Assembly (NCBI GenBank): GCA_045535925.1
Contig: JAZSMN010000202.1
Location: 1-24,432 of the forward strand
Direction of reading: 5' to 3'
Origin: Eubacteriales bacterium
GTDB lineage: Bacteria > Bacillota > Clostridia > Oscillospirales > CAG-272
Length of the DNA: 24,432 nt
The notes under the pieces are model-generated. The model had not been told where the DNA came from and searched no databases. It was given only the letters and a program-made list of their open reading frames with translations. Numbering within the stretch: the first letter of the stretch is position 1; each line of letters begins with the position of its first letter. The position numbers and the translations under genes are program-made. Shown one piece after another: positions 1 to 24,432 of the stretch.

Positions 1-1116
1 ACCGCTTGGCCTCCGACTTTTTGCAAGGGCTGACAAGGGGCTCAAGCCCTCGAGCTTTGCGACAGCGAGTGATAGACTCGCTCTTTTGTCCTTAAGTCTT
101 GCCTTTATACACTCGCTCGCCCTCTTTGACAGCTCGGATATATAAGTGCCTTTATCGGCGAGCAGCTGACCTGGATTTGCAAAAATGTTGTTAGATTTTA
201 AATTATCTATTCTTTCGCGGAGTCTTTGCACCTTATTTAGTAGCGCTCTGTCGCATCTGTCTGACATACTATCAAGGCCGATAATCAATTCATTTATATC
301 CACCGAGCAGAGCTCGGCAGCGGCAGACGGTGTAGGAGCGCGAAGGTCTGCGACAAAATCGCAGATAGTAAAGTCGGTTTCGTGACCTACCGCAGAAATA
401 ACAGGAATTTTTGCCGAAGCAATGCGGCGAGCAAGTGCCTCGCTGTTAAATGCCCACAAATCTTCAATAGAGCCTCCACCTCTTCCTATAATTATCGTAT
501 CAACAAGCGAGGAGGTGTCGAAATAGTCCACACCTTTAATCAAAGATGCCTCTGCACCCTCGCCCTGTACAAGCGCGGGGTAGACATAGACCTTTGCAAT
601 AGGATATCTGCGCCCAAGGATATTTAGTATATCCCTCACAGCGGCACCGGTAGGCGAGGTGACTACACCGATAGCCCTCGGAAATCTTGGTATATCCTTT
701 TTTCTATATTCATCAAAGAGCCCCTCTTCGGCAAGCCTGCCCTTCAACCTCTCGTAGGCGAGGTATAGCGCTCCAATGCCGTCAGGCTGGATAGACTTGA
801 CATAAAGCTGGTATGTTCCGTCCCTGACATATACAGATACAGAGCCACGAACCGTGACCTTCATACCATTTTCGGGTTCGAAACGCAGGTTTTGTGCCGC
901 CGAGGCAAACATTACAGCCTTTATCTGCCCCTCACTATCCTTTAGCGAGAAATAAAGGTGGCCGCTCCTATGACGGACGAAATTCGATATTTCGCCACTT
1001 ACAGAAACCGCACGAAGAAGCGAGGTATTTTCAAACACTTTTTTGATAAAGTCGTTTAACTGACAAACCGACATTATCCCAGAGTCCGGTCTTTCTCTCA
1101 AAGCCGAAATATCCAT
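1..1116 (-). CDS. xseA: Exodeoxyribonuclease VII large subunit (3' end runs off the window)
   Basis: Absent from the ORF track because there is no stop codon in the window. Manual translation from ATG at 1116 (GGAGG RBS at 1121-1125) gives MDISALRERPDSGIMSVCQLNDFIKKVFENTSLLRAVSVSGEISNFVRHRSGHLYFSLKD...IGVVTSPTGAAVRDILNILGRRYP...LEGLSPLSALA. These match the XseA OB-fold, the TSPTGAA motif and the LSPL motif. Confidence 0.95.
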   Translation of the reverse strand, partial: MDISALRERPDSGIMSVCQLNDFIKKVFENTSLLRAVSVSGEISNFVRHRSGHLYFSLKDSEGQIKAVMFASAAQNLRFEPENGMKVTVRGSVSVYVRDGTYQLYVKSIQPDGIGALYLAYERLKGRLAEEGLFDEYRKKDIPRFPRAIGVVTSPTGAAVRDILNILGRRYPIAKVYVYPALVQGEGAEASLIKGVDYFDTSSLVDTIIIGRGGGSIEDLWAFNSEALARRIASAKIPVISAVGHETDFTICDFVADLRAPTPSAAAELCSVDINELIIGLDSMSDRCDRALLNKVQRLRERIDNLKSNNIFANPGQLLADKGTYISELSKRASECIKARLKDKRASLSLAVAKLEGLSPLSALAKSRRPSG

Positions 1117-1150
1117 AATACCTCCTTCATAAACTCTTATCCTGTGGTAA

Positions 1151-2104
1151 TTAATGGGTTTGCTTGTATCTTAAAAGTCCAAGCGACGCAACACCAACCG
1201 CGTTGTCCGCGCTCAACATAGGCTCGGCAAAGCTGCTATCCTTGATAGTGGTGCCTATCATATCCTTAATAATAGAGTTGGACATAACTCCACCAGCGAA
1301 AAGCATCGGCATCTCGCCATATTCGGAAAGGAAGCGCTGGCAAATCTCGACAATCGCGCGCCCCAGATATCTTAAAACAAAGTGTGAGACAGCACTCTTA
1401 TCATTGGTATCCTCATAAAGCTTGGTCGCTATGTTTTCAAGCCCCGATAAATTCATATAACAAGCATCGGTCGAGGGGCGGCGATTTATAGGTTTGCCTG
1501 AATATTCGAGTGCTAAACGCTCAAGCGCAGGGCCACAGGGGAATGAAAGCCCCATTTTTACTCCAATACGGTCTATTACCTGCCCTGCGTTAAGGTCCTT
1601 GGTGCCACCGACAATCTTTGCCTCAAAGCCGTTTTGCGAATAGCTGCATAAGAGGAGCTCGGTAGTGCCACCCGAAATGTGCATAGCACCAAATTGTCTA
1701 TCAAGCAAATCGAATTTGCCCGAGGAAAAGATGCCCGCCATCAAATGACCACACTGGTGCGACACCTTGTATAAATCAACACCATGTGTCGATGCTATAC
1801 CCTGTGCCACGGCAACGCCACTCAAAAAGCAAGGCATATACGAGCCCTCTTGGTTTCTTGGCTTTTCGCTAACAGCCACTGCCAAAACAGGGCTATCCCC
1901 TATGGCTTCGCGAAGGCGCTCCATACAGGTGGGAAGATTTTTAATGTGGGCAAACACAGCATCCGCCTGTCTTAACCCACACTCCCCCGCCTTTACGGGT
2001 AACGGTATTTTTATATTATCAACAAGCCCTCCGTCATAACCAATGGCTGCGACAGAGGTCGTATAATTGCTTGTATCTATTCCGAGTATAATACCCTCTC
2101 TCAT
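1151..2104 (-). CDS. TsaD/Kae1-like (peptidase M22/ASKHA fold) protein, probably a paralog rather than the canonical TsaD
   Basis: GIDTSNYTTS N-terminus, HxxxH (HQCGH), SGGTT, AGQVID, GPALE, SGL, GGVMSN and DNA motifs align with Kae1/TsaD motifs. Overlaps nusB by ATGA. Confidence 0.85.
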   Translation of the reverse strand: MREGIILGIDTSNYTTSVAAIGYDGGLVDNIKIPLPVKAGECGLRQADAVFAHIKNLPTCMERLREAIGDSPVLAVAVSEKPRNQEGSYMPCFLSGVAVAQGIASTHGVDLYKVSHQCGHLMAGIFSSGKFDLLDRQFGAMHISGGTTELLLCSYSQNGFEAKIVGGTKDLNAGQVIDRIGVKMGLSFPCGPALERLALEYSGKPINRRPSTDACYMNLSGLENIATKLYEDTNDKSAVSHFVLRYLGRAIVEICQRFLSEYGEMPMLFAGGVMSNSIIKDMIGTTIKDSSFAEPMLSADNAVGVASLGLLRYKQTH

Positions 2105-2514
2105 TTTCTGCCGAGAACCTCTGCCACCTTATTAAGTACACCGTTTACAAAGGAATATGCCTTGTCATCATCGTACTTCTTGGCCAGCTCTATGGCCTCG
2201 TTTATTGAAACACGAACAGGAATATCCTCCATAAACATAAGCTCGTATGTAGCAAGTGTAATTATAGCACGAGATACAAAGGAAACGCGCTCCTTGGCCC
2301 ATCCAACCAGGCAGGGCTGTATGGTCTCGGATATAATCTGTGCGTTCTCAACAGTGCCAAAAAACACCTGCTTTACATATCCGTCCACCTCGAGTCCACG
2401 AATTTCTGTGGCTTTTGTATATATCTCCTCTGCGGTTTCGTCCTTTGTAGTCTCTTTAATTGCATTCTCAAACAAAAGGATAAAAGCATTTTCTCTCGCT
2501 GTTTTTCTGTTCAT
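2101..2514 (-). CDS. nusB: Transcription antitermination factor NusB
   Basis: RKTARENAFILLF N-terminus; VSINEAIELAKKY..SFVNGVLNKV C-terminal motif. Confidence 0.96.
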   Translation of the reverse strand: MNRKTARENAFILLFENAIKETTKDETAEEIYTKATEIRGLEVDGYVKQVFFGTVENAQIISETIQPCLVGWAKERVSFVSRAIITLATYELMFMEDIPVRVSINEAIELAKKYDDDKAYSFVNGVLNKVAEVLGRK

Positions 2515-2549
2515 ATGGTCAAAACCTCATAAATATTTTTAGTATTAAT

Positions 2550-2578
2550 ATTATAATATTATTTTTATATTTTGTCAA
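2550..2578 (-). promoter_or_regulatory. sigmaA promoter for nusB-tsaD-like-xseA
   Basis: Minus strand reads TTGACA (2578-2573), 17 nt, TATAAT (2555-2550): a perfect consensus. Confidence 0.8.
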
Positions 2579-2723
2579 CCACAAAGCGCGGATTTTTCAC
2601 AAAAATGCATTTTTATTCACTATATACAAATTATAGTGGTATGTTTTACATTATAGCAATCGAAAGGTATACGATGTATTCTTTTACTTATTTCGCTTTT
2701 TTCTTTAATTTTCCTTTTCGGTA

Positions 2724-2752
2724 TTTACATTCACCCATTTATGTGGTATACT
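2724..2752 (+). promoter_or_regulatory. sigmaA promoter for DUF951-ruvAB
   Basis: TTTACA (2724-2729), 17 nt, TATACT (2747-2752), with an extended -10 TG. Confidence 0.65.
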
Positions 2753-2779
2753 TATAAGGATAAGAAGGAGGGGTGCATT

Positions 2780-2977
2780 TTGTCGGTTAAATTTGGGGTC
2801 AAAGACAAGCTTTATATGAAAAAATCGCATCCTTGCGGTTCTTTCATTTTCACTGTCGCAAGAGGTGGTACGGATGTACGCATAATTTGTGACGGATGTG
2901 GAAGGGATATTACCCTCTCAAGGGAAAAACTCGAGCCAAGAATCAAAACCGTGCTACCCAAAAACGAAAACAATTAA
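2780..2977 (+). CDS. DUF951-family small protein
   Basis: MKKSHPCG....VARGGTDVRIICDGCGRDITLSREKLE matches the DUF951 pattern (KKxHPCG, R.G.D.ri.C..CgR). TTG start at 2780 follows an AAGGAGG RBS; the track's ATG at 2741 lies inside the promoter. Confidence 0.85.
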   Translation: MSVKFGVKDKLYMKKSHPCGSFIFTVARGGTDVRIICDGCGRDITLSREKLEPRIKTVLPKNENN

Positions 2978-2988
2978 AGAGGTTTAGA

Positions 2989-3606
2989 ATGTTTTATTAC
3001 ATACAAGGCGAACTTGCTATAAGAGATATAAATATGTGTGTTATTGATTGTGGTGGAGTTGGATATCAGCTTACTATCAGCCTTATAACCTCAGAGTCGC
3101 TCGCCTCGAAGGTTGGGCAAAGGGTGAGGCTCTATACCTATCTCGCGGTTAGAGAGGATGGTGTCGAGCTCTTCGGCTTTGGCTCTCCCGCTGAAAAAAA
3201 TAGCTTCAATCTGCTTACCTCGGTCAGCGGTGTTGGCCCAAAAGCGGCTATGAGCATACTCTCTATTCTCTCGCCTGACAGACTTGCTATGGCGATAGCG
3301 ACAGAGGACACAAAATCCATATCAAAGGCGCAAAATGTCGGTGCTAAAACAGCGGCAAGAATAGTTCTTGAGCTTAAAGACAAAATTGCCAAGGACTTCC
3401 TGCCTACCTCCTCTTCGATGACGGGGGCAACTCTTGGAAATGTGGGCGCTGTGGCACACACAAGTGGCAATCTCGCCGATGCAACAGAGGCACTTATGGC
3501 CTTGGGATATGACAAGAACTCGGTTCTTTCTGCTATCAAGGGCATCGACCCCACCACGGATACTGGCGAAATCATCAGGGCCGTGCTGAAAAAACTAACA
3601 AGATAA
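2989..3606 (+). CDS. ruvA: Holliday junction branch migration protein RuvA
   Basis: MFYYIQGEL start, VIDCGGVGYQL, LYTYLAVRED..LFGF, VSGVGPKAAMSILS, VGAKTAARIVLELKDK, ALMALGY. Start moved to ATG 2989. Confidence 0.97.
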   Translation: MFYYIQGELAIRDINMCVIDCGGVGYQLTISLITSESLASKVGQRVRLYTYLAVREDGVELFGFGSPAEKNSFNLLTSVSGVGPKAAMSILSILSPDRLAMAIATEDTKSISKAQNVGAKTAARIVLELKDKIAKDFLPTSSSMTGATLGNVGAVAHTSGNLADATEALMALGYDKNSVLSAIKGIDPTTDTGEIIRAVLKKLTR

Positions 3607-3621
3607 AGGAGGACAAGCACT

Positions 3622-4698
3622 ATGATGGAAGAATTTAATGACTTTGACTTTGAAAACAGAATAGTATCCTCCGAATATGACTCGATACAGGATTCTGAGG
3701 TCGAAAACAACTTAAGACCCAAGACATTAGATGACTACATAGGACAGGAGCAGGTAAAATCTAATCTGCGTGTCTATATAGAATCGGCAAAAATGCGTGG
3801 CGAGGCCCTGGACCATGTACTACTTTACGGCCCTCCCGGTCTTGGTAAAACTACCCTATCCGGTGTTATAGCCAATGAAATGGGGGTAAATATTCGCACC
3901 ACCTCCGGTCCCGCTATCGAAAAACAGGGCGATCTTGCTGCGATTTTGACGAATTTGCAGGAGGGGGATGTGCTATTTATCGATGAGATACACCGTCTTT
4001 CCCGTGCGGTAGAGGAAATTCTATATCCCGCTATGGAGGACTATGCCCTCGATATTATAATTGGCAAAGGCCCGAGTGCAAGAAGCATTCGCTTGCCTAT
4101 CCCTCGTTTTACCCTTATAGGTGCTACAACAAGAGCAGGACAGCTCTCTACCCCTCTTCGCGACCGTTTTGGTGTTCCATTAAGGCTTGAATTATACACC
4201 CCCGAGGAGCTTGCAACTATTGTAAAGCGCTCGGCAAATATACTGGATATAAAAATCACAGAGAGCGGCGCTCTCGCAATAGCATCTCGTTCAAGAGGAA
4301 CTCCCCGTATAGCAAACAGACTGCTTAAGCGAGTACGAGATTTTGCACTCGTCAAGGGTGACGGAACAATAACCCCCGAAATAGCAGATCTGGCGCTTAA
4401 GGCTCTTGAAATAGACGACCTCGGACTTGACAACATAGACCGAAAAATGCTAACTGCAATTATCAAATTCTATTCGGGTGGTCCTGTGGGTCTTGAAACA
4501 ATTGCGGCAACGATTGGCGAGGAAGCTATCACTATCGAGGATGTTTACGAGCCCTATCTTATGCAAATCGGTTTCCTCTCTCGTACACCTCGCGGCCGAT
4601 GTGTAACTCATCTGGCATACGAGCATCTCGGCATCCCTTTTACAACAAACAAAAACAACCCAAAGATTTCACCAGACCAGGCATCATTCGATATTTAA
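3622..4698 (+). CDS. ruvB: Holliday junction branch migration ATPase RuvB
   Basis: [12 protein letters not shown], Walker [10 protein letters not shown], Walker [42 protein letters not shown]. Confidence 0.98.
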
Positions 4699-4715
4699 CG
4701 CTACATTATATACGC

Positions 4716-4752
4716 AAAAAACCGACAGAACTCATTCTGCCGGTTTTTATTT
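4716..4752. terminator. Bidirectional intrinsic terminator between convergent ruvB and rpe
   Basis: AAAAAACCG-A-CAGAA / TTCTG-C-CGGTTTTT stem flanked by A and T runs. Confidence 0.75.
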
Positions 4753-4784
4753 TTGTTATTCTGCCCTAATTTATTTCCCAAATT

Positions 4785-5432
4785 TTAAACTTTTCTTAAA
4801 TCATCGATAGCGGCTTTTCTGTCAGCTGCCTTAAATACAGAGCTACCTGCTACCAAAACGGTAGCGCCCTTTGCGATAGCCACAGGAGCATTCTTTGCGT
4901 TTATTCCGCCGTCTACCTGGATGTCGATATCAAGGCCTCTTCTCTCGATTTCTGCCCTCAATGTAGCCACCTTGTCAAGACATTCGGGAATCAAGGACTG
5001 TCCGCCATATCCGGGCTCGACTGTCATTATAAGCACCATATCACAGTATTCAAGAAGGTCATAAATTGCACTAACGGGAGTCTTGGGTTTAACCGATATT
5101 GCCGCCTTTACACCGCGCTCTCTAATATGCTTTAACGCCGCAAGAGAGTCCGCGCATGCTTCGTAATGGAATGTAAGGATATCAGCTCCCGCATCAATAA
5201 AACGATCTATGTATCTCTCCGGTGCTTCTATCATAAGATGCACATCGAATACCATCTTTGTTTTGTTTCTAAGTGCCTCAATAACAGGGTTGCCAAAGGA
5301 CATATTTGTAACAAACATACCGTCCATTACATCCAAGTGTACCATATCTGCCCCCGCTTTTTCTATTTCAAGAACTTCATCGCAAAGACGGGAAAGGTCG
5401 GCCGCAAGAACCGAAGGTGAAATTTTAATCAT
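4785..5432 (-). CDS. rpe: Ribulose-phosphate 3-epimerase
   Basis: ISPSVLAAD, HLDVMDGMFV, DVHLM, MTVEPGYGGQ, VDGGIN, VAGSSVF. Confidence 0.97.
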   Translation of the reverse strand: MIKISPSVLAADLSRLCDEVLEIEKAGADMVHLDVMDGMFVTNMSFGNPVIEALRNKTKMVFDVHLMIEAPERYIDRFIDAGADILTFHYEACADSLAALKHIRERGVKAAISVKPKTPVSAIYDLLEYCDMVLIMTVEPGYGGQSLIPECLDKVATLRAEIERRGLDIDIQVDGGINAKNAPVAIAKGATVLVAGSSVFKAADRKAAIDDLRKV

Positions 5433-5592
5433 AAAAACCTCTTTCTGTATGTAACTATAAATTATACTACTTCATATCATAATGAAGGGCCTATTAAACG
5501 GAAAGTCCGATGCCGACAGTATAAAGAAAAAGACGTGAGATTATACATCGGGGGTATCCGTTTCCCGCCATCTTCCCTTGGGAGATGGCTTT

Positions 5593-6075
5593 TTATTTTA
5601 TTTCGAGCAGGCACACCGCGTGTGCAGAAGCGCCCTCCTCATTTCCTGTAAAACCAAGTTTTTCCTCGGTGGTTGCCTTTATATTTACTCTTGCGATATC
5701 AACATTGAGTATGGAGGATATGTTGGAACGCATGTCCAAAATATAAGGTGCTATTTTCGGTCTTTGTATTACCAAGGTAGCATCGATGTTTACCACCTCT
5801 GCTACCGAGTCATCAAGGAGACGCTTTACATATTTTAATAGTTCGAGGCTCGAAATCCCCTTATACTTATCGTCGGTGTCGGGAAAATGCTTGCCAATAT
5901 CCCCAAGTCCCAAGGCGCCTATCAATGCGTCCATTATAGCGTGAACAAGCACATCGGCATCCGAGTGACCAAGGCATCCCTTTTCGTGTGGAATATCTAC
6001 CCCGCCGAGGATAAGCTTTCGCCCCTCGGTTAGCCTGTGGACATCATATCCGTGCCCAATTCTAAAGTTGCACAT
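5593..6075 (-). CDS. ispF: 2-C-methyl-D-erythritol 2,4-cyclodiphosphate synthase
   Basis: [48 protein letters not shown]. True start is ATG 6075, 1 nt after the ispD stop. Confidence 0.97.
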
Positions 6076-6076
6076 C

Positions 6077-6775
6077 TTATTTTCTCTCCCCACCAAGCAA
6101 AATTTTGGCATATTCAAGGTCAAAGGTATCGGTAATCTTGATATTATCAGCCGAAACCTCAACGCATTTTATAGGCGCGCCTATGACCTCGACAAGCATA
6201 TTATCATCGGTTATAACCGAGAGGTCAGGACACTCTACCAAGGCTCTCTTATACATATCGGTATTAAACACCTGGGGTGTCATTGCTCTTTTAACCATTT
6301 GCCTGTCTATTGTGCCACTAATAAAGCCGTCCTTGTCGACTGCTTTTAAGGTATCGTATACAGCACTAACAGCGGTAGCCGCACCATTTTGGTATGCCGC
6401 CCTAACCACCAGGGAGATATCCTCGGGCTTAACAAGACACCTCGCCGCATCGTGAATTGCCACAAAATCTGTGTCGTCAGGAACGGACAAGAAGCCGCGA
6501 AGAGCAGATTCTGCCCTGCAATTTCCCCCGACTACTATTTTTGTAGGCTTTTTTATCCCTTTTTGAAGTTCGCCCTCTGCAAACTCTATCTCATCCTCGC
6601 GCACAACAACGATAATCGAGGAAATATCCTCGCACATATCAAATGCCTTGACACTATGCCAAAGGATAGACGAGCCACAGAGAGTCATTCTCTGCTTTGT
6701 TGTATCGCTTTTCATACGGCTGCCGCTACCACCCGCGAGGATAAGTGCTACCGTTTTATTACCTAAACTGCTCAT
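6077..6775 (-). CDS. ispD: 2-C-methyl-D-erythritol 4-phosphate cytidylyltransferase
   Basis: [36 protein letters not shown]...DL; adjacent to ispF. Confidence 0.95.
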
Positions 6776-6778
6776 ATA

Positions 6779-7120
6779 TTACTTCCTATGATATACGAAA
6801 TGGACGGTAACAGTTCTCACCTTGCCATCCTCAAGCAGGTTAGGGCCGGTTATAATTACACCGTTGCCACTCATAAGCCAGCTTGTCTGTAAATGCTTTA
6901 TTTCGCAGACAAAAATTCTGTCTCCTGAGGAGTCAATAATAAAGGTATCGTTATGTATTGCAAGAGCACCGCCCCTGCCTATTACGTCCTCGTTGTTATC
7001 AATACGCTCGGTAACATACTGCACGGGCTGACCGTGTAGCTCCTTTGCCCTTGCGAGTCTGTAGGAATAGCTCTCGGGATTTTCTCCTATTCCAAACAAT
7101 TTCTTAAAGAAAGATAGCAT
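6779..7120 (-). CDS. Hypothetical protein, 113 aa, first gene of the ispDF operon
   Basis: AAAGGTG RBS-like sequence upstream, 3-nt gap to ispD, own promoter, no overlap with another real gene. No family recognised. Confidence 0.8.
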   Translation of the reverse strand: MLSFFKKLFGIGENPESYSYRLARAKELHGQPVQYVTERIDNNEDVIGRGGALAIHNDTFIIDSSGDRIFVCEIKHLQTSWLMSGNGVIITGPNLLEDGKVRTVTVHFVYHRK

Positions 7121-7173
7121 AATTTCACCTTTATATATCGTCTTTTTTGACCTGTCTTTTAACCTGTATAGTT

Positions 7174-7202
7174 ATTTTAACACAAAAAAATCCTTATGTG
7201 AA
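7174..7202 (-). promoter_or_regulatory. sigmaA promoter for hypothetical-ispD-ispF
   Basis: Minus strand reads TTCACA, 17 nt, TAAAAT, with an extended -10 TG. Confidence 0.6.
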
Positions 7203-7262
7203 GGGCTTTTCTAATTTTAATTAAACTTTATTCAAAAAAATTAACTTTTTTTGCAAAACCTA

Positions 7263-7291
7263 TTGATTTTTTCCTACATATATATTATAAT
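7263..7291 (+). promoter_or_regulatory. sigmaA promoter of the mraZ/dcw operon
   Basis: TTGATT (7263-7268), 17 nt, TATAAT (7286-7291). Confidence 0.7.
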
Positions 7292-7297
7292 GGTATC

Positions 7298-7333
7298 AAA
7301 GTGGGGCAAAGTGGAGCAAAGTGAAGCAAAATA
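7298..7333 (+). promoter_or_regulatory. MraZ operator: three 10-bp-period direct repeats
   Basis: AAAGTGGGGC AAAGTGGAGC AAAGTGAAGC directly downstream of the -10. Matches the known GTGG(A/G)G-N4 MraZ-binding repeats. Confidence 0.85.
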
Positions 7334-7414
7334 CCATTAAATTGCCACCGTTTCCCCATAAAGCATACAAATTGGTAGCCTTTTTGAAAAAATCTGATGA
7401 AAGGAGATATGAGG

Positions 7415-7843
7415 ATGTCGTTTGTAAGCCACTATACACACTCGCTTGATGCAAAGAAGCGCGTATTTATCCCCTCGAAGTTCCGCGAAGAACTTGGCGA
7501 CGAATTCTACATTACCAAGAAATTCGACCCTTATCTCTCCATATACACCGCAGAAGATTGGGCTGAATTTGTTGATAAAATCCAGCGCCTCCCCGAATCC
7601 GAGGCTATGGATATCCAAGAGCATCTCTTGGGCTCGGCACAAAAGTGCACCCCTGATGCAAGCGGAAGAATAATTCTTGATGAGGAGCTGGCAGAGTATG
7701 CCGGCATTACTAAAAATATCGTTTTCGTCGGTGTTGGTCGACAGATAAGAATTTGGGCTGAGGAAACCTGGCTCGAAAGAGAAAGCGAAAGAAAGAGCAA
7801 GATTGGTGCTATGAAGGAGTTTATGATCTCTAGGGGTCTTTAA
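7415..7843 (+). CDS. mraZ: Division/cell wall cluster transcriptional repressor MraZ
   Basis: HYTHSLDAKKRVFIPSKFREELG, DASGRIIL, VFVGVGRQIRIW. AAGGAG RBS supports the start at ATG 7415. Confidence 0.95.
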   Translation: MSFVSHYTHSLDAKKRVFIPSKFREELGDEFYITKKFDPYLSIYTAEDWAEFVDKIQRLPESEAMDIQEHLLGSAQKCTPDASGRIILDEELAEYAGITKNIVFVGVGRQIRIWAEETWLERESERKSKIGAMKEFMISRGL

Positions 7844-7866
7844 TCTTCATAGGAAAGGAAAGTTAA

Positions 7867-8811
7867 ATGTCAGACTTCGAGTTTTCTCACAAGTCAGTAC
7901 TTTTATATGAATGTATAGACGCGCTTAACATAAGAGACGGCTTTACCTATGTTGACTGTACCGCAGGTGGCGGTGGTCACTCGCTGGAAATAGCAAAGGC
8001 AATGGGTCCTAATTCCCGACTCATCTGCTTTGACAGAGACAAGAATGCTATTGCGGCGGCAACAGAGCGTTTAAGAGACTACCTGGACCGTGTCACATTT
8101 GTAAACGAGAACTTCTCCTCTTTGGATACGGTTCTTGCCGATATGAATATCACCAACCTTGGCGGTGTGCTTGCCGACCTTGGTTGTAGCTCGCACCAGT
8201 TTGATGTACCAGAGAGAGGCTTTAGCTATATGCACGATGCGCCACTCGATATGAGAATGGACACCGACGCTCCCCTTTCCGCTTTTAATGTTGTAAACGA
8301 ATATTCCGAGGCGGATATAAAAAGAATACTCTTTGAGTATGGCGAGGAAAGATTTGCACCAAGAATTGCCTCTATGATTTGTAGACAGCGCGCTATTTCC
8401 CCAATTCGCACAACAGGCGAGCTCACAGAGGTTATAAAGAGTGCCATTCCCCCTGCTGCAAGAGCAGACGGCCCTCACCCCGCAAAAAGAAGCTTCCAAG
8501 CAATTAGAATAGAGGTCAATGGTGAGCTTGATGCTATCAAGCCCGTTATTGAAAGTGCGGCAAGGCGCCTCGCTACCTCTGGTAGAATAGCAATAATTTC
8601 CTTCCACTCGCTTGAGGATAGAATAGTAAAGCAAACCTACAAGTCCCTGTCGGTTGGATGCACTTGTCCGAGAGATTTCCCGATTTGCGTATGTGGAAAA
8701 AGACCTTTGATTAAAGAAATCTCTAAAAAACCAGTCCTCCCCACAGAGGAGGAGCTTCTCGAAAATCCTCGCGCAAGAAGTGCGAAGTTGAGGATAGCCG
8801 AGAAAATTTAA
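7867..8811 (+). CDS. rsmH: 16S rRNA m4C1402 methyltransferase
   Basis: HKSVLL, DCTAGGGGHS, DLGCSSHQFD..ERGFSY, PLDMRM, FQAIRIEVNGEL, SFHSLEDRIVK, NPRARSAKLR. Confidence 0.98.
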   Translation: MSDFEFSHKSVLLYECIDALNIRDGFTYVDCTAGGGGHSLEIAKAMGPNSRLICFDRDKNAIAAATERLRDYLDRVTFVNENFSSLDTVLADMNITNLGGVLADLGCSSHQFDVPERGFSYMHDAPLDMRMDTDAPLSAFNVVNEYSEADIKRILFEYGEERFAPRIASMICRQRAISPIRTTGELTEVIKSAIPPAARADGPHPAKRSFQAIRIEVNGELDAIKPVIESAARRLATSGRIAIISFHSLEDRIVKQTYKSLSVGCTCPRDFPICVCGKRPLIKEISKKPVLPTEEELLENPRARSAKLRIAEKI

Positions 8812-21379: not shown

Positions 21380-23584
21380 TTAGTTTTCCGCCAGGCGCTC
21401 TGCAAGAGTGGTGTATCGCAAGGTTTCACGATTGTTTTGCACCATTCTACCGGGGATATCTGCCCTACCGACTAATATAACCATTTTCTTGGCACGAGTG
21501 ACGGCTGTATAAAGCAGATTTCTTGTCAAAAGCATCGGTGCGCAATAGTACATCGGAATTATAACAACAGGATATTCACTACCCTGACTCTTGTGTACTG
21601 TTATCGCGTAGGCGAGTTCAAGCTCTTCAAGATTTTCAAAGGGATATTCCACCCTTCTCTCATCAAACAGGATAAGCATCTTCTCTTCGCTTGGGTCGAT
21701 GCGTTCGACAACTCCCACGTCACCATTGAAAATGCCAATTCCCTCATATCCCGCCTTTTCCCAACGCAACTCATAGTTGTTGGTGTTTTGCATAACCTTG
21801 TCTCCCTCACGGAAGATTGTACCGTGGGCGGCTTTTTCTCGCTTAAACTTACCAGGCGGGTTTATTCTCGCCTGTAATTCCATATTAAGTGTTTCAACAC
21901 CGCCAGGCCCCTTTCTCGAGGGAGAGATAACCTGTATTTGCGAGGAAAAATCTCTGCCGTAGCTTCTTGGTAATCTCTCGGTAATCAAGGAGGAAATGGT
22001 AGAAGGTATCAACCTCTCGTCCTCACGATTTACAAAGAAGAAATCGTTGTCTGTGATACCAAGCAAAGGAGTAATACCCGCATTAATACGGTGGGCATTA
22101 CTGATTATAAGGCTTTTTTCCGACTGACGGAATATTTCTTTAAGACAAACCGTGCTAATAACACCAGAGGCGATAAAATCGGCAAGCACATTTCCAGCCC
22201 CCACACTTGGTAGCTGGTCAGAGTCGCCTATGAGGATAAGACGCGCGCCCCTCTTCATAGCACGAAGAAGTGCGGTAATCAAAGAGAGGTCAATCATCGA
22301 GGCCTCGTCTGCAATAACCACATCCTCGTCCAAGGGGTTTCGACTATCGCGGTTAAAGACGGTTTCAAAGCCGCCTCGTCTTTCCATTTCCAAAAGTCGG
22401 TGAATAGTCTTCGCCTCGTGGCCTGTCGCCTCGCTAAGTCGCTTTGCCGCGCGACCGGTGGGTGCACACAAGACAACCTTTCGACCAATACCGTTAAACA
22501 GGGTAATCATCGCACGAACGACAGTAGTCTTACCGGTACCGGGTCCACCGGTTAAAATGCTAACACCATTTTCAAGGGCACGGAACAGCGCCAGCCTCTG
22601 CAAGTGTGCATACTCGATACCCATATATGCCTCGACCTCTTCTATCATCGAGGAAATATCATACTGGCTAAAGGTGGATAAATCACTACACATGCTTCTG
22701 ATTTTAGCGGCGACAAATCTCTCGTTTTCGTCGGTGGTAGAACTCATAATAAGTCTATCATTTTCGGTTTGGTAAGAGGCAATAGCCTCCTCTACAATTA
22801 GTTCTTCGAGGGTTTGAGAAACTGCCGTTTTTTCAATATTAAGCATTTGTGCCGTGGCAGAAAGCAGTTTTTCCTCTGGAAGGCAGGTGTGCCCGTTGGT
22901 AACTCCGTTGTAAGAAAGTATGTATTCAAGGCCTGTGAATATACGATTTTTTGACATCATATTATGCCCCAAGGACATTGCTATTTTGTCAGCGGTTTCA
23001 AAAGAAATGCCATACTCGGTGTCGCATAGGATATAAGGATTTTCCTTAACTATACCTATTGTGTCGCCACCCAGCTTCTTATACATTTTTGATATTTCAC
23101 CCAACGAGGCATAGTCCTTAAAGAACATCATTACATTTCTAAAACCTGCTTGCTCACGGAAGGACGCGGAAATTGTTGCCGCTTTTTTTAGCGTAATTCC
23201 GGGAATATCCGCAAGCCACTCGGGGTGGTTCTCGATTATATTAAAGGTATCAAGACCAAATCTGTTTACTATTTTTAGCGCGGTGACGGGGCCTACTCCT
23301 TTTACAGAGCGGCTTGACAAATATTGAATTATGCCGTCAATTTCATCAGGCAAATACTTCTCATGCTTTGATAAGACAAACTGTTTACCAAACTCCTTGT
23401 GGAAAGTCCAAGTACCATAAAGCACTACCCTCTCCCCCTCAGTGAGCATCGGGATTTCTCCCACCGCTGTTACAAGTTCGTCATCAACCGAAATTTGGAA
23501 AACGGTATAGTCATTGGTTTCGTTTTTATAAACAATCTCTTCTACTGTACCACTGATAGTTTCAAGGGTTGACATTCTGTCCAT
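21380..23584 (-). CDS. recD2: ATP-dependent RecD2 DNA helicase (SF1B)
   Basis: N-terminal OB/HhH region (VKGVGPVTA), Walker A GGPGTGKTT, LCAPTGRAAKRL, DEASM, GDSDQLPSVG, FRQSEKS, YAITVHKSQGSE, LLYTAVTRAK. Confidence 0.96.
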   Translation of the reverse strand: MDRMSTLETISGTVEEIVYKNETNDYTVFQISVDDELVTAVGEIPMLTEGERVVLYGTWTFHKEFGKQFVLSKHEKYLPDEIDGIIQYLSSRSVKGVGPVTALKIVNRFGLDTFNIIENHPEWLADIPGITLKKAATISASFREQAGFRNVMMFFKDYASLGEISKMYKKLGGDTIGIVKENPYILCDTEYGISFETADKIAMSLGHNMMSKNRIFTGLEYILSYNGVTNGHTCLPEEKLLSATAQMLNIEKTAVSQTLEELIVEEAIASYQTENDRLIMSSTTDENERFVAAKIRSMCSDLSTFSQYDISSMIEEVEAYMGIEYAHLQRLALFRALENGVSILTGGPGTGKTTVVRAMITLFNGIGRKVVLCAPTGRAAKRLSEATGHEAKTIHRLLEMERRGGFETVFNRDSRNPLDEDVVIADEASMIDLSLITALLRAMKRGARLILIGDSDQLPSVGAGNVLADFIASGVISTVCLKEIFRQSEKSLIISNAHRINAGITPLLGITDNDFFFVNREDERLIPSTISSLITERLPRSYGRDFSSQIQVISPSRKGPGGVETLNMELQARINPPGKFKREKAAHGTIFREGDKVMQNTNNYELRWEKAGYEGIGIFNGDVGVVERIDPSEEKMLILFDERRVEYPFENLEELELAYAITVHKSQGSEYPVVIIPMYYCAPMLLTRNLLYTAVTRAKKMVILVGRADIPGRMVQNNRETLRYTTLAERLAEN

Positions 23585-23613
23585 ACCGTTCTCCTTTTCT
23601 TTTCGTTTAGTTT

Positions 23614-23642
23614 ATTATATCAAATTATAACTCTGATTTCAA
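23614..23642 (-). promoter_or_regulatory. sigmaA promoter (duplicated copy 1) driving recD2
   Basis: Minus strand reads TTGAAA, 17 nt, TATAAT, with extended -10 (TGaTATAAT). Confidence 0.75.
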
Positions 23643-23664
23643 GTACAGTTAAGGATATAAATAT

Positions 23665-23697
23665 TAAAAAATGGGTGCGATAAAATATCACACCCAT
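23665..23697 (-). terminator. Intrinsic terminator after TerY-C-like gene copy 1
   Basis: ATGGGTG.GA/TC.CACCCAT stem followed on the minus strand by a T run. Confidence 0.7.
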
Positions 23698-23725
23698 AAA
23701 ACAAGTATAAATCAAAGCGATTAAA

Positions 23726-24100
23726 TTAGAATCCGCCGCCAACATCAAGGCTCTCAAGTGTACCGCTAATTTCACCGCTGCTATTGCACCATTGGCAACA
23801 AGAAAATTGTTCTCCTGCGTGGCAATTAATTTTCCCGCAAGAACCACACCGATAGTAACCTCCCTTGCCACAGTAAGGACACCCCGGCCATTTTTCGTTC
23901 CAACGAATGTCACCTTTGATGGTAAAAATAGAAGCATATCCTTCACGACCTGCCGCCTTTTCATCAATAGCGAATGTCCAGTGATGCTCCCAATAAGCCT
24001 CGCTGCTACTTTCAAACTTAACCATTGTCATTCCGTAAGGTTTACCAGTCTTAGAACATTTGCACATTATAACGCCACCATCTGTTATATTTGATGCCAT
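23726..24100 (-). CDS. Standalone TerY-C-like Cys-rich metal-binding protein (copy 1)
   Basis: AGGAGG RBS. CKCSKTGKPY..W.FAID..PGCPYCG..CGSCGKINC..CQWC..LDVGGGF matches the TerY-C domain pattern as I recall it. Confidence 0.78.
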   Translation of the reverse strand: MASNITDGGVIMCKCSKTGKPYGMTMVKFESSSEAYWEHHWTFAIDEKAAGREGYASIFTIKGDIRWNEKWPGCPYCGKGGYYRCGSCGKINCHAGEQFSCCQWCNSSGEISGTLESLDVGGGF

Positions 24101-24190
24101 CCCTTACCTCCTAAATAAAATACACATTATACACATTTCTTTGAGAGCATCTGCATTTTTGCAGATTTACAATTTAACTTTTTTAAGTTC

Positions 24191-24219
24191 ATTATATCAA
24201 ATTATAAGTCCGATTTCAA
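24191..24219 (-). promoter_or_regulatory. sigmaA promoter (duplicated copy 2) driving TerY-C-like copy 1
   Basis: Minus strand reads TTGAAA, 17 nt, TGaTATAAT; same layout as 23614-23642. Confidence 0.7.
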
Positions 24220-24289
24220 GTACAAGATAAAGATTTGGGTGAGATAGAATGTCGCACCCATAGAAACAAGTATAAATCAAAGCGAAAAA

Positions 24290-24432
24290 TCAGAAGCCGC
24301 CGCCAACATCAAGGCTCTCGATAGTACCGCTAATATTACAAGTGCTATTGCACCACTTGCAAACAGAAACACTCTCTCCTCCGTGGCAATTTATCTTTCC
24401 ACAGCCACCACACTGGAAGTAACCACCCTTGC
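24290..24432 (-). CDS. TerY-C-like protein copy 2 (C-terminal part only; starts beyond the window)
   Basis: Manual translation KGGYFQCGGCGKINCHGGESVSVCKWCNSTCNISGTIESLDVGGGF* is 34/46 identical to the C-terminus of copy 1. Confidence 0.88.
   Translation of the reverse strand, partial: KGGYFQCGGCGKINCHGGESVSVCKWCNSTCNISGTIESLDVGGGF

What the first reader, a model, noticed from the sequence alone, without database searches (positions are those of the whole stretch)
23614..24432. Tandem array of diversified standalone TerY-C-like zinc-binding genes in units that carry the promoter for the next gene
Seen in sequence: at least two paralogs in tandem. Their last 46 aa are 74% identical, with the CxxC, C-H and CxxC ligands kept. 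Each gene is followed by a conserved hairpin and then a nearly identical extended -10 sigmaA promoter (32/34 nt). One promoter copy fires into TerY-C copy 1 and the other into recD2. The repeat boundary falls exactly at the -10 box, so the unit reads 5'UTR, gene, terminator, promoter: it can sit between a promoter and its gene and restore that promoter. Established knowledge: TerY-C is a metal-binding domain linked to the TerY vWA / Ter stress and anti-phage neighbourhoods. Inference: an expanding, diversifying family of small sensor or defence proteins. The promoter DNA appears more conserved than the encoded protein, which may reflect diversifying selection.
Basis: partly seen in the sequence, partly recalled or inferred. 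Interest (0 to 1): 0.7.

Follow-up and report, generated by a model that had tools for sequence, protein, structure and literature searches.

The report
Duplicated TerY-C zinc-protein gene pair
Two neighbouring small zinc-binding genes come from one old, ordinary tandem duplication that happened to copy the next gene's promoter, and they probably work with a kinase, vWA and phosphatase signalling system encoded elsewhere in the genome.

Summary
The sequence observation largely holds. Two paralogous 124-aa TerY-C genes lie head to tail on the minus strand upstream of recD2. Each is followed by a copy of a near-consensus extended -10 promoter (32 of 34 nt identical).

The interpretation as an expanding, diversifying array of promoter-carrying units does not hold:
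- Joining the window to contig C79 (141-nt exact overlap) gives metK, copy 2, copy 1, recD2. That is two copies, bounded by housekeeping genes.
- The repeat starts inside metK. A decayed copy of its last ~65 nt forms copy 1's leader. It ends about 15 nt past the -10 box. This is a plain tandem duplication of about 0.56 kb with arbitrary ends.
- The promoter is the ancestral recD2 promoter.
- Four related lineages have one copy at this site. Most congeners have none.
- dN/dS is about 0.16 and dS about 0.88, so the duplication is old and under purifying selection.

What is new: elsewhere this family sits beside a kinase, vWA and PP2C ("TerY-P") triad. This genome has such a triad, plus a transglutaminase, unlinked on contig C199. 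A complex prediction supports TerY-C docking on the vWA metal-binding (MIDAS) face (score 0.71, best control 0.07). Overall it is an ordinary member of a known family, of modest interest.

The parts
21380..23584 (-). recD2 (734 aa), the gene downstream of the pair
   Evidence: ORF. Pfam finds AAA_19, AAA_30, HHH_RecD2, OB_YrrC, SH3_13 and UvrD_C_2.
23614..23642 (-). Ancestral recD2 promoter, TTGAAA-17-TGaTATAAT
   Evidence: Scores 11 of 12 plus TG. The same promoter lies in the metK-recD2 spacer of congeners that lack TerY-C and in single-copy orthologs.
23671..23697 (-). Intrinsic terminator after copy 1 (12-bp stem, T-run)
   Evidence: The only terminator-like site in the region. Folds at -17.1 kcal/mol, z -4.97. 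Conserved in orthologs.
23726..24100 (-). TerY-C copy 1 (124 aa), the more diverged paralog
   Evidence: Pfam TerY_C 34.3 bits. AF2 model pLDDT 87.7. TM 0.87 to a standalone TerY-C cluster. Eight conserved Cys are present.
24101..24178 (-). Leader of copy 1. It is a decayed copy of the last ~65 nt of metK (about 24116-24178, with a hairpin at 24149-24166), followed by the RBS AGGAGG at 24107-24112.
   Evidence: It aligns to the metK 3' end of this genome and of orthologs. The matching metK sequence is conserved coding sequence in congeners.
24191..24219 (-). Duplicate of the recD2 promoter, now upstream of copy 1
   Evidence: Scores 11 of 12 plus TG. 32 of 34 nt are identical to 23614-23647.
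24237..24259 (-). Decayed hairpin after copy 2 (internal mismatch, T-run lost through a 13-nt deletion)
   Evidence: Folds at -9.8 kcal/mol, z -1.99. Not called by the terminator scan. The deletion is visible against orthologs.
24290..24432 (-). 3' part of TerY-C copy 2. The full gene is G000:C79:2549-2923 (124 aa), 15 nt downstream of the metK stop.
   Evidence: 141-nt exact overlap of C79 and C129. ORFs. Copy 2 covers TerY_C profile positions 7-124 of 129.
23599..24178 (-). Repeat unit 1 (about 580 nt): metK remnant, copy 1, terminator, recD2 promoter to about +5
   Evidence: Alignment of the two units. Contigs of relatives join 23598 to 24191, which is the single-copy form.
24179..24432 (-). 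Repeat unit 2 (about 555 nt in all, continuing to C79 position 2480): metK 3' end, copy 2, decayed hairpin, promoter copy

Best explanation
The locus is a single, old tandem duplication of about 0.56 kb. It is not an array.

History:
- The genus-wide ancestral arrangement is metK, terminator, promoter, recD2.
- In one sub-lineage a standalone TerY-C gene was inserted right after metK, with a 15-nt spacer and its own RBS, so it is co-transcribed with metK.
- Later, in this genome's lineage only, a segment was duplicated in place. It ran from about 65 nt before the metK stop to about 15 nt past the recD2 -10 box.
- As a by-product, the downstream copy (copy 1) received a copy of the recD2 promoter and a leader made of a dead metK fragment. 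recD2 kept its own promoter.
- The hairpin after copy 2 has since lost its U-tract. Copy 1 is therefore probably transcribed both by read-through from metK and copy 2 and from the duplicated promoter. This step is inferred.

Both proteins are kept by purifying selection, with all eight zinc-ligand cysteines intact.

Function (inferred): they are the zinc-binding TerY-C subunit that in classical TerY is fused to a vWA domain. Here they are encoded apart from their partners, a Ser/Thr kinase, vWA, PP2C, transglutaminase and LRR operon on contig C199. The N-terminal beta-sheet half of TerY-C, including the near-invariant Glu53 region, is predicted to dock on the MIDAS metal site of the vWA protein. 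The cysteine-rich half stays exposed. The module would act as a TerY-P-type phosphorylation switch, possibly in stress or phage defence.
For: Structure of the locus:
- 141-nt exact overlap joins C79 to C129. The order is metK, copy 2, copy 1, recD2. No other copy is in the assembly.
- Copy 1's leader aligns to the metK 3' end.
- metK and recD2 are adjacent in 22 of 29 sampled congener loci, and none has TerY-C there. The spacers hold a terminator and a TTGaaa-N17-TGnTATAAT promoter.
- Single-copy metK, TerY-C, recD2 is seen in L043-48, L049/50, L051 and species G488. Relatives' contigs join window 23598 to 24191.

Selection and age:
- dN/dS is 0.16-0.17 and dS 0.82-0.90.
- metK dS between the species is 0.84-0.86.

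Protein:
- Pfam TerY_C scores above the cut-off.
- At least 500 cluster representatives match, mostly standalone proteins of 115-125 aa that align over the full length.
- C15, C74, C77, C102 and C105 are invariant. C85, C88 and C93 are nearly so.
- TM is 0.87 to standalone TerY-C models and 0.75 to vWA+TerY_C fusions.

System link:
- TerY-C lies next to Pkinase, VWA and PP2C_2 in Prevotella, in Oscillospiraceae, in a third lineage and in a DnaJ fusion. It lies next to Transglut_core in P0005, P0007, G002, G533, G478 and G492.
- C199 carries kinase, vWA, PP2C_2, Transglut_core and LRR_5.
- Sister species G488 has the same unlinked pair of loci, with vWA 99.6% identical.
- G533 has all components in one operon.
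- A PP2C homolog was found in only 2 of 60 sampled congeners.
- The components diverge in step: 27-40% identity to the C199 proteins, against 35-40% for TerY-C.

Complex prediction: score 0.71, best of 3 controls 0.07. That mark was reached by 58 of 80 solved complexes and by 2 of 110 mismatched pairs; these counts hold only roughly here because my own alignments were used. The runs agree in at least 89% of contacts and the partner's pLDDT is at least 79. The interface covers vWA MIDAS residues 33-35, 98-101 and 138-143 and TerY-C residues 2-10, 23-27, 40-45 and 52-54. Only 2 of 21 interface sites differ between the paralogs.

Literature: PMC10542128 describes the TerY-P triad as a predicted metal-sensing phosphorylation switch, and TerY-P-like modules as anti-phage systems.
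Against: - The join of C79 and C129 rests on a k-mer-length overlap at a contig break. No read or contig spanning both copies was seen. An extra, nearly identical unit collapsed by the assembler cannot be excluded.
- The ML tree places copy 1 outside the copy 2 + G488 group. An in-lineage duplication is disfavoured, though not rejected (delta lnL 7.9, p-AU 0.064). The alternatives are loss of a copy in sister lineages, import of copy 1, or a faster-evolving copy 1.
- The TerY-C genes are unlinked to C199. Co-occurrence rests on about two independent lineages.
- PADLOC models give no hit for TerY-C, vWA or the transglutaminase, and only weak kinase hits.
- There is no expression, binding or metal data. 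The complex score is a model's confidence, not a measurement.
- The genome is 81.6% complete.
Confidence: 0.72

Rival explanations
1. The locus is an expanding, diversifying tandem array of self-contained units (5'UTR, gene, terminator, promoter). Each unit can insert between a promoter and its gene and restore that promoter.
For: Two units do carry near-identical promoters, and the second promoter does face recD2. The paralogs differ most in the cysteine-rich half, 12 of 38 sites.
Against: - There are only two copies, bounded by metK and recD2.
- The unit's ends fall inside metK coding sequence and about 15 nt past the -10 box, not at module edges.
- Four related lineages have a single copy.
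- dN/dS is 0.16.
- The promoter is the ancestral recD2 promoter, present without any TerY-C gene in congeners.
Confidence: 0.04
2. Copy 1 did not arise by duplication of the resident gene. It came in by unequal recombination with DNA from a diverged relative carrying the same metK, TerY-C, recD2 locus. The two copies were therefore already diverged when the tandem formed.
For: - Copy 2 is closer to the G488/L043 ortholog (dS 0.46-0.48, 89% aa) than to copy 1 (dS 0.88, 77% aa).
- The ML tree and AU test favour copy 1 outside the copy 2 + G488 group.
- Copy 1's metK remnant shares some synonymous states with L043 rather than with this genome's metK.
- A contig in run X1 shows a different recD2 start joined to this sequence, a hint of recombination at the locus.
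Against: - Both copies share a 3'UTR stretch, 22 of 22 nt identical, that is absent from all orthologs. This argues for common descent within this lineage or for later gene conversion.
- Synonymous four-point sums slightly favour copy 1 with copy 2. This is my own arithmetic on the distances.
- The in-lineage topology is not rejected (p-AU 0.064).
- Only 119 codons are available.
Confidence: 0.15
3. The two TerY-C proteins act on their own or with the flanking housekeeping genes, for example as zinc-binding or storage proteins or as modulators of metK or recD2. They have no functional tie to the C199 kinase, vWA and PP2C locus.
For: The genes are unlinked to C199. Copy 2 is tightly coupled to metK, with a 15-nt spacer conserved in orthologs. 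PADLOC gives no hit.
Against: - metK-recD2 is just a spacer that also hosts AraC-type regulators in other congeners.
- Elsewhere the family is consistently beside the triad or the transglutaminase.
- Both loci are kept together in G488.
- The complex prediction passes its controls.
Confidence: 0.15
4. The tandem arrangement is an assembly artefact. Alleles from two co-occurring strains were stitched head to tail.
For: The contig breaks inside copy 2 with a k-mer-length overlap. That signals a branch in the assembly graph, and related strains occur in similar samples.
Against: Contig C129 alone contains copy 1, the junction with a decayed metK fragment and a 9-nt internal duplication, the second promoter, the decayed hairpin and 143 nt of copy 2. 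A chimera of alleles would not create a degenerate metK remnant between them.
Confidence: 0.03

Closest known systems
TerY of ter (tellurite resistance) clusters: vWA domain fused to a C-terminal TerY-C domain (Pfam PF00092 + PF15616)
   Same: The same TerY-C domain: HMM above the cut-off, eight conserved Cys, and TM 0.75 between this model and predicted vWA+TerY_C fusion proteins. A TerY-like vWA protein with an intact MIDAS motif exists in this genome.
   Different: Here the TerY-C domain is a separate 124-aa protein, present twice, and encoded on a different contig from the vWA gene. No TerD and no Ter-type C-C bond lyase were found in the 82%-complete assembly.
Standalone TerY-C genes beside TerY-P triads (Pkinase, vWA, PP2C), e.g. 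Prevotella sp. WP_248613912.1 and Oscillospiraceae MAG MBQ9521584.1
   Same: Same length, full-length homology at 35-43% identity, and the same partner gene set in the genome.
   Different: In those genomes the TerY-C gene lies inside or next to the triad operon and is single-copy. Here it has moved to the metK-recD2 spacer and has been duplicated.
TerY-P-like anti-phage modules (Gao et al. 2020, as cited in PMC10542128)
   Same: The same three enzyme types, vWA, PP2C and Ser/Thr kinase, in one operon.
   Different: The PADLOC models give no hit for the vWA, transglutaminase or TerY-C proteins and only weak PD-T4-6-type kinase hits. The added transglutaminase and LRR_5 genes are not part of the described triad. 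No defence phenotype has been tested.
Ordinary tandem segmental duplication with promoter capture
   Same: Two direct repeats of about 0.56 kb. The junction joins the right end (just past a promoter) to the left end (inside the upstream gene). The downstream copy therefore gains a promoter and a pseudogene fragment as its leader.
   Different: Nothing essential differs. The only notable point is that both copies have been kept under purifying selection for a long time.

Membership tests
Pfam PF15616 TerY_C (TerY-C metal binding domain) | HMM score above the curated gathering threshold (28.4 bits) | tested here: met
   Copy 1 scores 34.3 bits. Copy 2 covers profile positions 7-124 of 129 and scores 31.4 bits with its neighbours in the frame.
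Pfam PF15616 TerY_C (TerY-C metal binding domain) | Conserved set of cysteine metal ligands | tested here: met
   C15, C74, C77, C102 and C105 are invariant, and C85, C88 and C93 are at least 90% conserved in 80 sequences. All eight are present in both copies. His94 is not conserved.
Pfam PF15616 TerY_C (TerY-C metal binding domain) | Same fold as other family members | tested here: met
   AF2 pLDDT is 87.7. TM is 0.87 over 117 residues to a standalone TerY-C cluster and 0.75 to vWA+TerY_C proteins. Both sides are predicted models. No solved structure is available for comparison.
Pfam PF15616 TerY_C (TerY-C metal binding domain) | Actual metal (zinc) binding | not testable with these tools
   Needs metal analysis of purified protein.
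TerY-P triad system (TerY-like vWA + PP2C + Ser/Thr kinase) | All three genes present and adjacent | tested here: met
   C199 minus strand carries kinase 5321-6709, vWA 4320-5129 and PP2C_2 2298-4196.
TerY-P triad system (TerY-like vWA + PP2C + Ser/Thr kinase) | TerY-C fused to, or adjacent to, the vWA gene | tested here: not met
   The TerY-C genes are on C79/C129, and none is on C199. The same unlinked layout is seen in G488.
TerY-P triad system (TerY-like vWA + PP2C + Ser/Thr kinase) | Physical association of TerY-C with the vWA protein | tested here: inconclusive
   The complex prediction supports binding: score 0.71, best control 0.07, runs agree in at least 89% of contacts, partner pLDDT at least 79. 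This is a model, not a measurement.
TerY-P triad system (TerY-like vWA + PP2C + Ser/Thr kinase) | Match to curated defence-system models or an anti-phage phenotype | tested here: inconclusive
   PADLOC gives weak PD-T4-6 kinase hits only and nothing for vWA, transglutaminase or TerY-C. No phenotype has been tested.
Ter tellurite-resistance / Ter-associated biosynthetic cluster | TerD-family proteins and the ATP-grasp and C-C bond lyase biosynthetic genes present | tested here: not met
   No TerD and no C-C_Bond_Lyase match was found. The ATPgrasp_Ter hit lies in a 1064-aa ORF, and the same search fires in all 14 control genomes. The genome is 81.6% complete.
   This genome has two units. Four related lineages have one, and most congeners have none.
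   The left boundary is inside metK coding sequence. The right boundary is about 15 nt past the -10 box.
   dN/dS is 0.16-0.21 overall, 0.17 for residues 1-70 and 0.15 for residues 71-124.

The most novel reading that the evidence does not exclude
The two paralogs are alternative, exchangeable sensor or adaptor subunits for one vWA, kinase and PP2C switch. Both keep the MIDAS-docking face but have diverged on the exposed cysteine-rich face. They are wired to different inputs: copy 2 is co-transcribed with SAM synthetase (metK), and copy 1 is driven by a copy of the recD2 promoter. The unlinked signalling or defence module would then read two different physiological states.
Probability: 0.15. 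Interest if true: 0.5.

Novelty: new member of a known kind. Interest (0 to 1): 0.25.

Why it matters
It removes a tempting but unsupported idea, that of self-propagating gene units that carry their own promoter. In its place is a documented, step-by-step history: insertion of an accessory gene into a housekeeping spacer, then a segmental duplication that captured a promoter.

The more useful outcome is a testable hypothesis for a domain with no solved structure and no known mechanism. TerY-C is predicted to dock through its conserved N-terminal sheet and Glu53 region onto the MIDAS site of the TerY-like vWA protein, and it can be encoded far from its partners. Surveys of TerY-P or defence islands that rely on gene adjacency would therefore miss this component.

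Tried and rejected
- The search for related loci with alignments A1 and A2 failed, because no stretch is conserved enough.
- PDB fold searches found no relative: Foldseek gave nothing at E <= 0.001, and VIA-align's best was Z 3.4 over 34 residues of RBR/RanBP2-type zinc ribbons.
- No RNA holder is listed for this DNA, and no run holds more than 14% of the sampled words. Transcription starts could not be examined.
- The laid contigs did not bridge the copy 2 to copy 1 junction in the near-identical runs X1 and X2.
- The class-level search found the family in none of 398 other genomes. Only about 11 candidates per genome were scored, so this count is a floor.
- TerD, C-C_Bond_Lyase and a true Ter ATP-grasp were not found in this genome.
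- PADLOC gave no match for TerY-C, vWA or the transglutaminase.
- I considered and dropped a special function for the 22-nt identical 3'UTR stretch. It is not conserved in orthologs. At 79% overall identity, about 0.7 such runs are expected in 560 nt by my own estimate. A short gene-conversion tract is as good an explanation.
- The enrichment of paralog differences outside the predicted interface is not significant (Fisher p = 0.16).
Full report
WHAT IS IN THE SEQUENCE

The genes of interest lie on the minus strand:
- recD2 is at 21380-23584.
- A 124-aa ORF (copy 1) is at 23726-24100.
- The last 46 codons of a paralog (copy 2) are at 24290-24432, cut by the window end.

Copy 1 scores 34.3 bits on Pfam TerY_C against a cut-off of 28.4, and the copy 2 fragment scores 21.6 bits. 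The consensus scan finds two sites reading TTGAAA-17-TATAAT with a TG extension, each 11 of 12, at 23642..23614 and 24219..24191. They are 32 of 34 nt identical.

EXTENDING THE LOCUS

The window is the whole of contig C129 in a 265-contig MAG that is 81.6% complete. Contig C79 (2921 bp) ends with 141 nt that are identical to the reverse complement of the window's end. No other contig shares this sequence.

Joined, the order is: a pfk-like gene, a small ORF, metK, then 15 nt, copy 2, copy 1, recD2, and an mreB-like gene. There are two copies, bounded by housekeeping genes on both sides. A family search of the genome finds no third copy.

Caveat: the join rests on a k-mer-length overlap at a contig break, and no spanning read was available. 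A collapsed, nearly identical extra unit cannot be strictly excluded.

NATURE OF THE REPEAT

Aligning the two units shows that copy 1's 5' leader is a decayed copy of the last ~65 nt of metK, with a 9-nt internal duplication. The matching metK stretch is conserved coding sequence in congeners. On the other side, similarity continues about 15 nt past the -10 box and then meets the metK remnant.

The unit is about 555-580 nt. It runs from inside metK to just past the recD2 promoter. This is the signature of a segmental tandem duplication with arbitrary ends, not of a module built from 5'UTR, gene, terminator and promoter.

The hairpin after copy 1 is a good terminator (-17.1 kcal/mol with a T-run). 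The one after copy 2 has an internal mismatch, has lost its T-run through a 13-nt deletion, folds at only -9.8 kcal/mol and is not called as a terminator.

COMPARATIVE HISTORY

- In 29 congener loci sampled around recD2, 22 have metK within 1.5 kb upstream and none has a TerY-C gene.
- Their spacers, mostly 60-260 nt, hold a terminator and a TTGaaa-N17-TGnTATAAT promoter. Two share the TTTGATATAAT motif. The promoter is therefore the ancestral recD2 promoter.
- Four lineages close to this genome have metK, one TerY-C gene, a hairpin, the promoter and recD2. They are the metagenome contig groups L043-48, L049/50 and L051, and the species representative G488.
- Contigs of relatives in two other gut metagenomes join window 23598 to 24191, which is the single-copy form.
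- The family was found in 9 of 200 congeners and in none of 398 other genomes of the class. This points to horizontal acquisition.
- In two other congeners the same spacer holds an AraC-family regulator.

SELECTION AND AGE

The copies are 77% identical in protein and 79% in DNA. dN is 0.14-0.15, dS is 0.82-0.90 by two methods (0.69 by a third), and dN/dS is 0.16-0.21, similar in both halves of the protein. This is purifying selection, not diversifying selection.

metK dS between this genome and G488 or L049 is 0.84-0.86, while recD2 dS is saturated. The duplication is thus roughly as old as the split of these species.

Copy 2 is closer to the G488/L043 ortholog (dS 0.46-0.48) than to copy 1. 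The ML tree places copy 1 outside the copy 2 + G488 group, and the in-lineage topology is disfavoured but not rejected (delta lnL 7.9, p-AU 0.064). Against that, both copies share a 3'UTR stretch that is absent from every ortholog.

I cannot decide between three options: an in-lineage duplication with a fast-evolving copy 1, an older duplication followed by losses, or import of copy 1 by unequal recombination. None of them makes this a currently expanding array.

The promoter and the terminator-to-RBS region are about as conserved between species as between the two copies. Their conservation reflects constraint on recD2 regulation.

THE PROTEIN

- A sensitive search finds at least 500 cluster representatives. 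Most are standalone proteins of 115-125 aa that align over the full length.
- In an 80-sequence alignment, C15, C74, C77, C102 and C105 are invariant. C85, C88 and C93 are nearly so, along with W37, W41, F43 and E53. The His after C93 is variable.
- The AF2 model is confident (pLDDT 87.7). It has an N-terminal antiparallel sheet with one helix, followed by a cysteine-rich half of short hairpins.
- It has no meaningful solved relative.
- It matches predicted standalone TerY-C proteins at TM 0.87 and vWA+TerY_C fusions at TM 0.75.

THE PARTNERS

Elsewhere the gene sits beside a Pkinase, VWA and PP2C_2 triad. This holds in Prevotella, in Oscillospiraceae, in a third lineage and in a DnaJ-TerY_C fusion. 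Hsp70, GrpE or DnaJ genes lie near three of these four contexts. It also sits beside a transglutaminase-like gene in several genomes.

PMC10542128 describes this TerY-P triad as a predicted metal-sensing phosphorylation switch, with relatives that act as anti-phage systems.

This genome has exactly such a set on contig C199: kinase, vWA (intact MIDAS motif), PP2C_2, Transglut_core and LRR_5, with no TerY-C gene there. Three comparisons support the link:
- Sister species G488 keeps the same two unlinked loci, with vWA 99.6% and kinase 97% identical.
- Congener G533 has kinase, vWA, PP2C, an unknown ORF, transglutaminase and TerY-C in one operon.
- A PP2C homolog of this type was found in only 2 of 60 sampled congeners.

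The components also diverge in step across genomes.

A complex prediction of the C199 vWA protein with copy 1 supports binding. The score is 0.71 and the best of three controls 0.07. That mark was reached by 58 of 80 solved complexes and by 2 of 110 mismatched pairs; these counts hold only roughly here because my own alignments were used. The runs agree in at least 89% of contacts, and the partner's pLDDT is at least 79.

The interface places TerY-C residues 2-10, 23-27, 40-45 and 52-54 on vWA residues 33-35, 98-101 and 138-143, which form the MIDAS face. Only 2 of 21 interface positions differ between the paralogs, both conservatively, against 12 of 38 in the cysteine-rich region. This contrast is not significant (p = 0.16). 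No TerY-C complex has been solved, as far as these searches show, so the pass is unlikely to be memory of a known structure. It is still a model, not a measurement.

VERDICT

The locus is an ordinary, old, two-copy tandem duplication of a horizontally acquired standalone TerY-C gene. As a by-product it copied the recD2 promoter.

The most interesting result is secondary. The pair is probably the unlinked zinc-binding subunit of a TerY-P-type kinase, vWA, PP2C and transglutaminase system, with a specific and testable docking mode.

Novelty: new member of a known kind. Interest: modest.

Noticed in passing
G000 contig C199 (L079) 27-6709, minus strand: An operon of Ser/Thr kinase, vWA (intact MIDAS), PP2C_2 with a long coiled-coil tail, a transglutaminase-like protein and a BspA-type LRR_5 protein. 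G488 has the same order, followed by several more LRR_5 paralogs (L096).
   Followed up: partly
window 24149-24166 and C79 about 2491-2506: The metK 3' end holds a 16-nt perfect palindrome in coding sequence, and several congeners keep a similar palindrome. The dead metK copy in copy 1's leader keeps a hairpin there through a paired G:C to A:T change. This may be a conserved RNA element at the end of metK, or chance.
   Followed up: no
L024:2064-2846 and L041:2015-2878: In two congeners the metK-recD2 spacer instead holds an opposite-strand AraC-family regulator (HTH_18, HTH_AraC, Cupin_2). This spacer appears to be a recurrent landing place for accessory genes.
   Followed up: partly
recD2 5' region (window 22874-23584) versus metK and TerY-C: Between this genome and G488, synonymous divergence is saturated in recD2 (dS about 2.5). 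It is 0.86 in metK and only 0.46 in TerY-C copy 2, three adjacent genes. Possible causes are codon-usage constraint or recent exchange of the metK and TerY-C segment.
   Followed up: partly
window 23563 (run X1): A contig at least 99% identical to recD2 codons downstream of 23563 continues with a different recD2 start and RBS, resembling the L049-type sequence. This hints at a recombinant strain at this locus.
   Followed up: no
G478:C114 (L087, L093): Two TerY-C-like matches about 0.9 kb apart lie inside ORFs of 308 and 338 aa, next to a transglutaminase homolog. This would be a second case of tandem TerY-C-containing genes, here as larger fused proteins.
   Followed up: no
P0035 context; L066 and L070: A DnaJ-TerY_C fusion protein exists, and Hsp70, GrpE or DnaJ genes recur next to TerY-C and triad loci. 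This suggests a chaperone connection for these systems.
   Followed up: no
G002:C72 (L078) 5088-8187: In congener G002 the transglutaminase and TerY-C pair is followed by NikA-like and ParB genes, so it probably sits on a mobile element.
   Followed up: no
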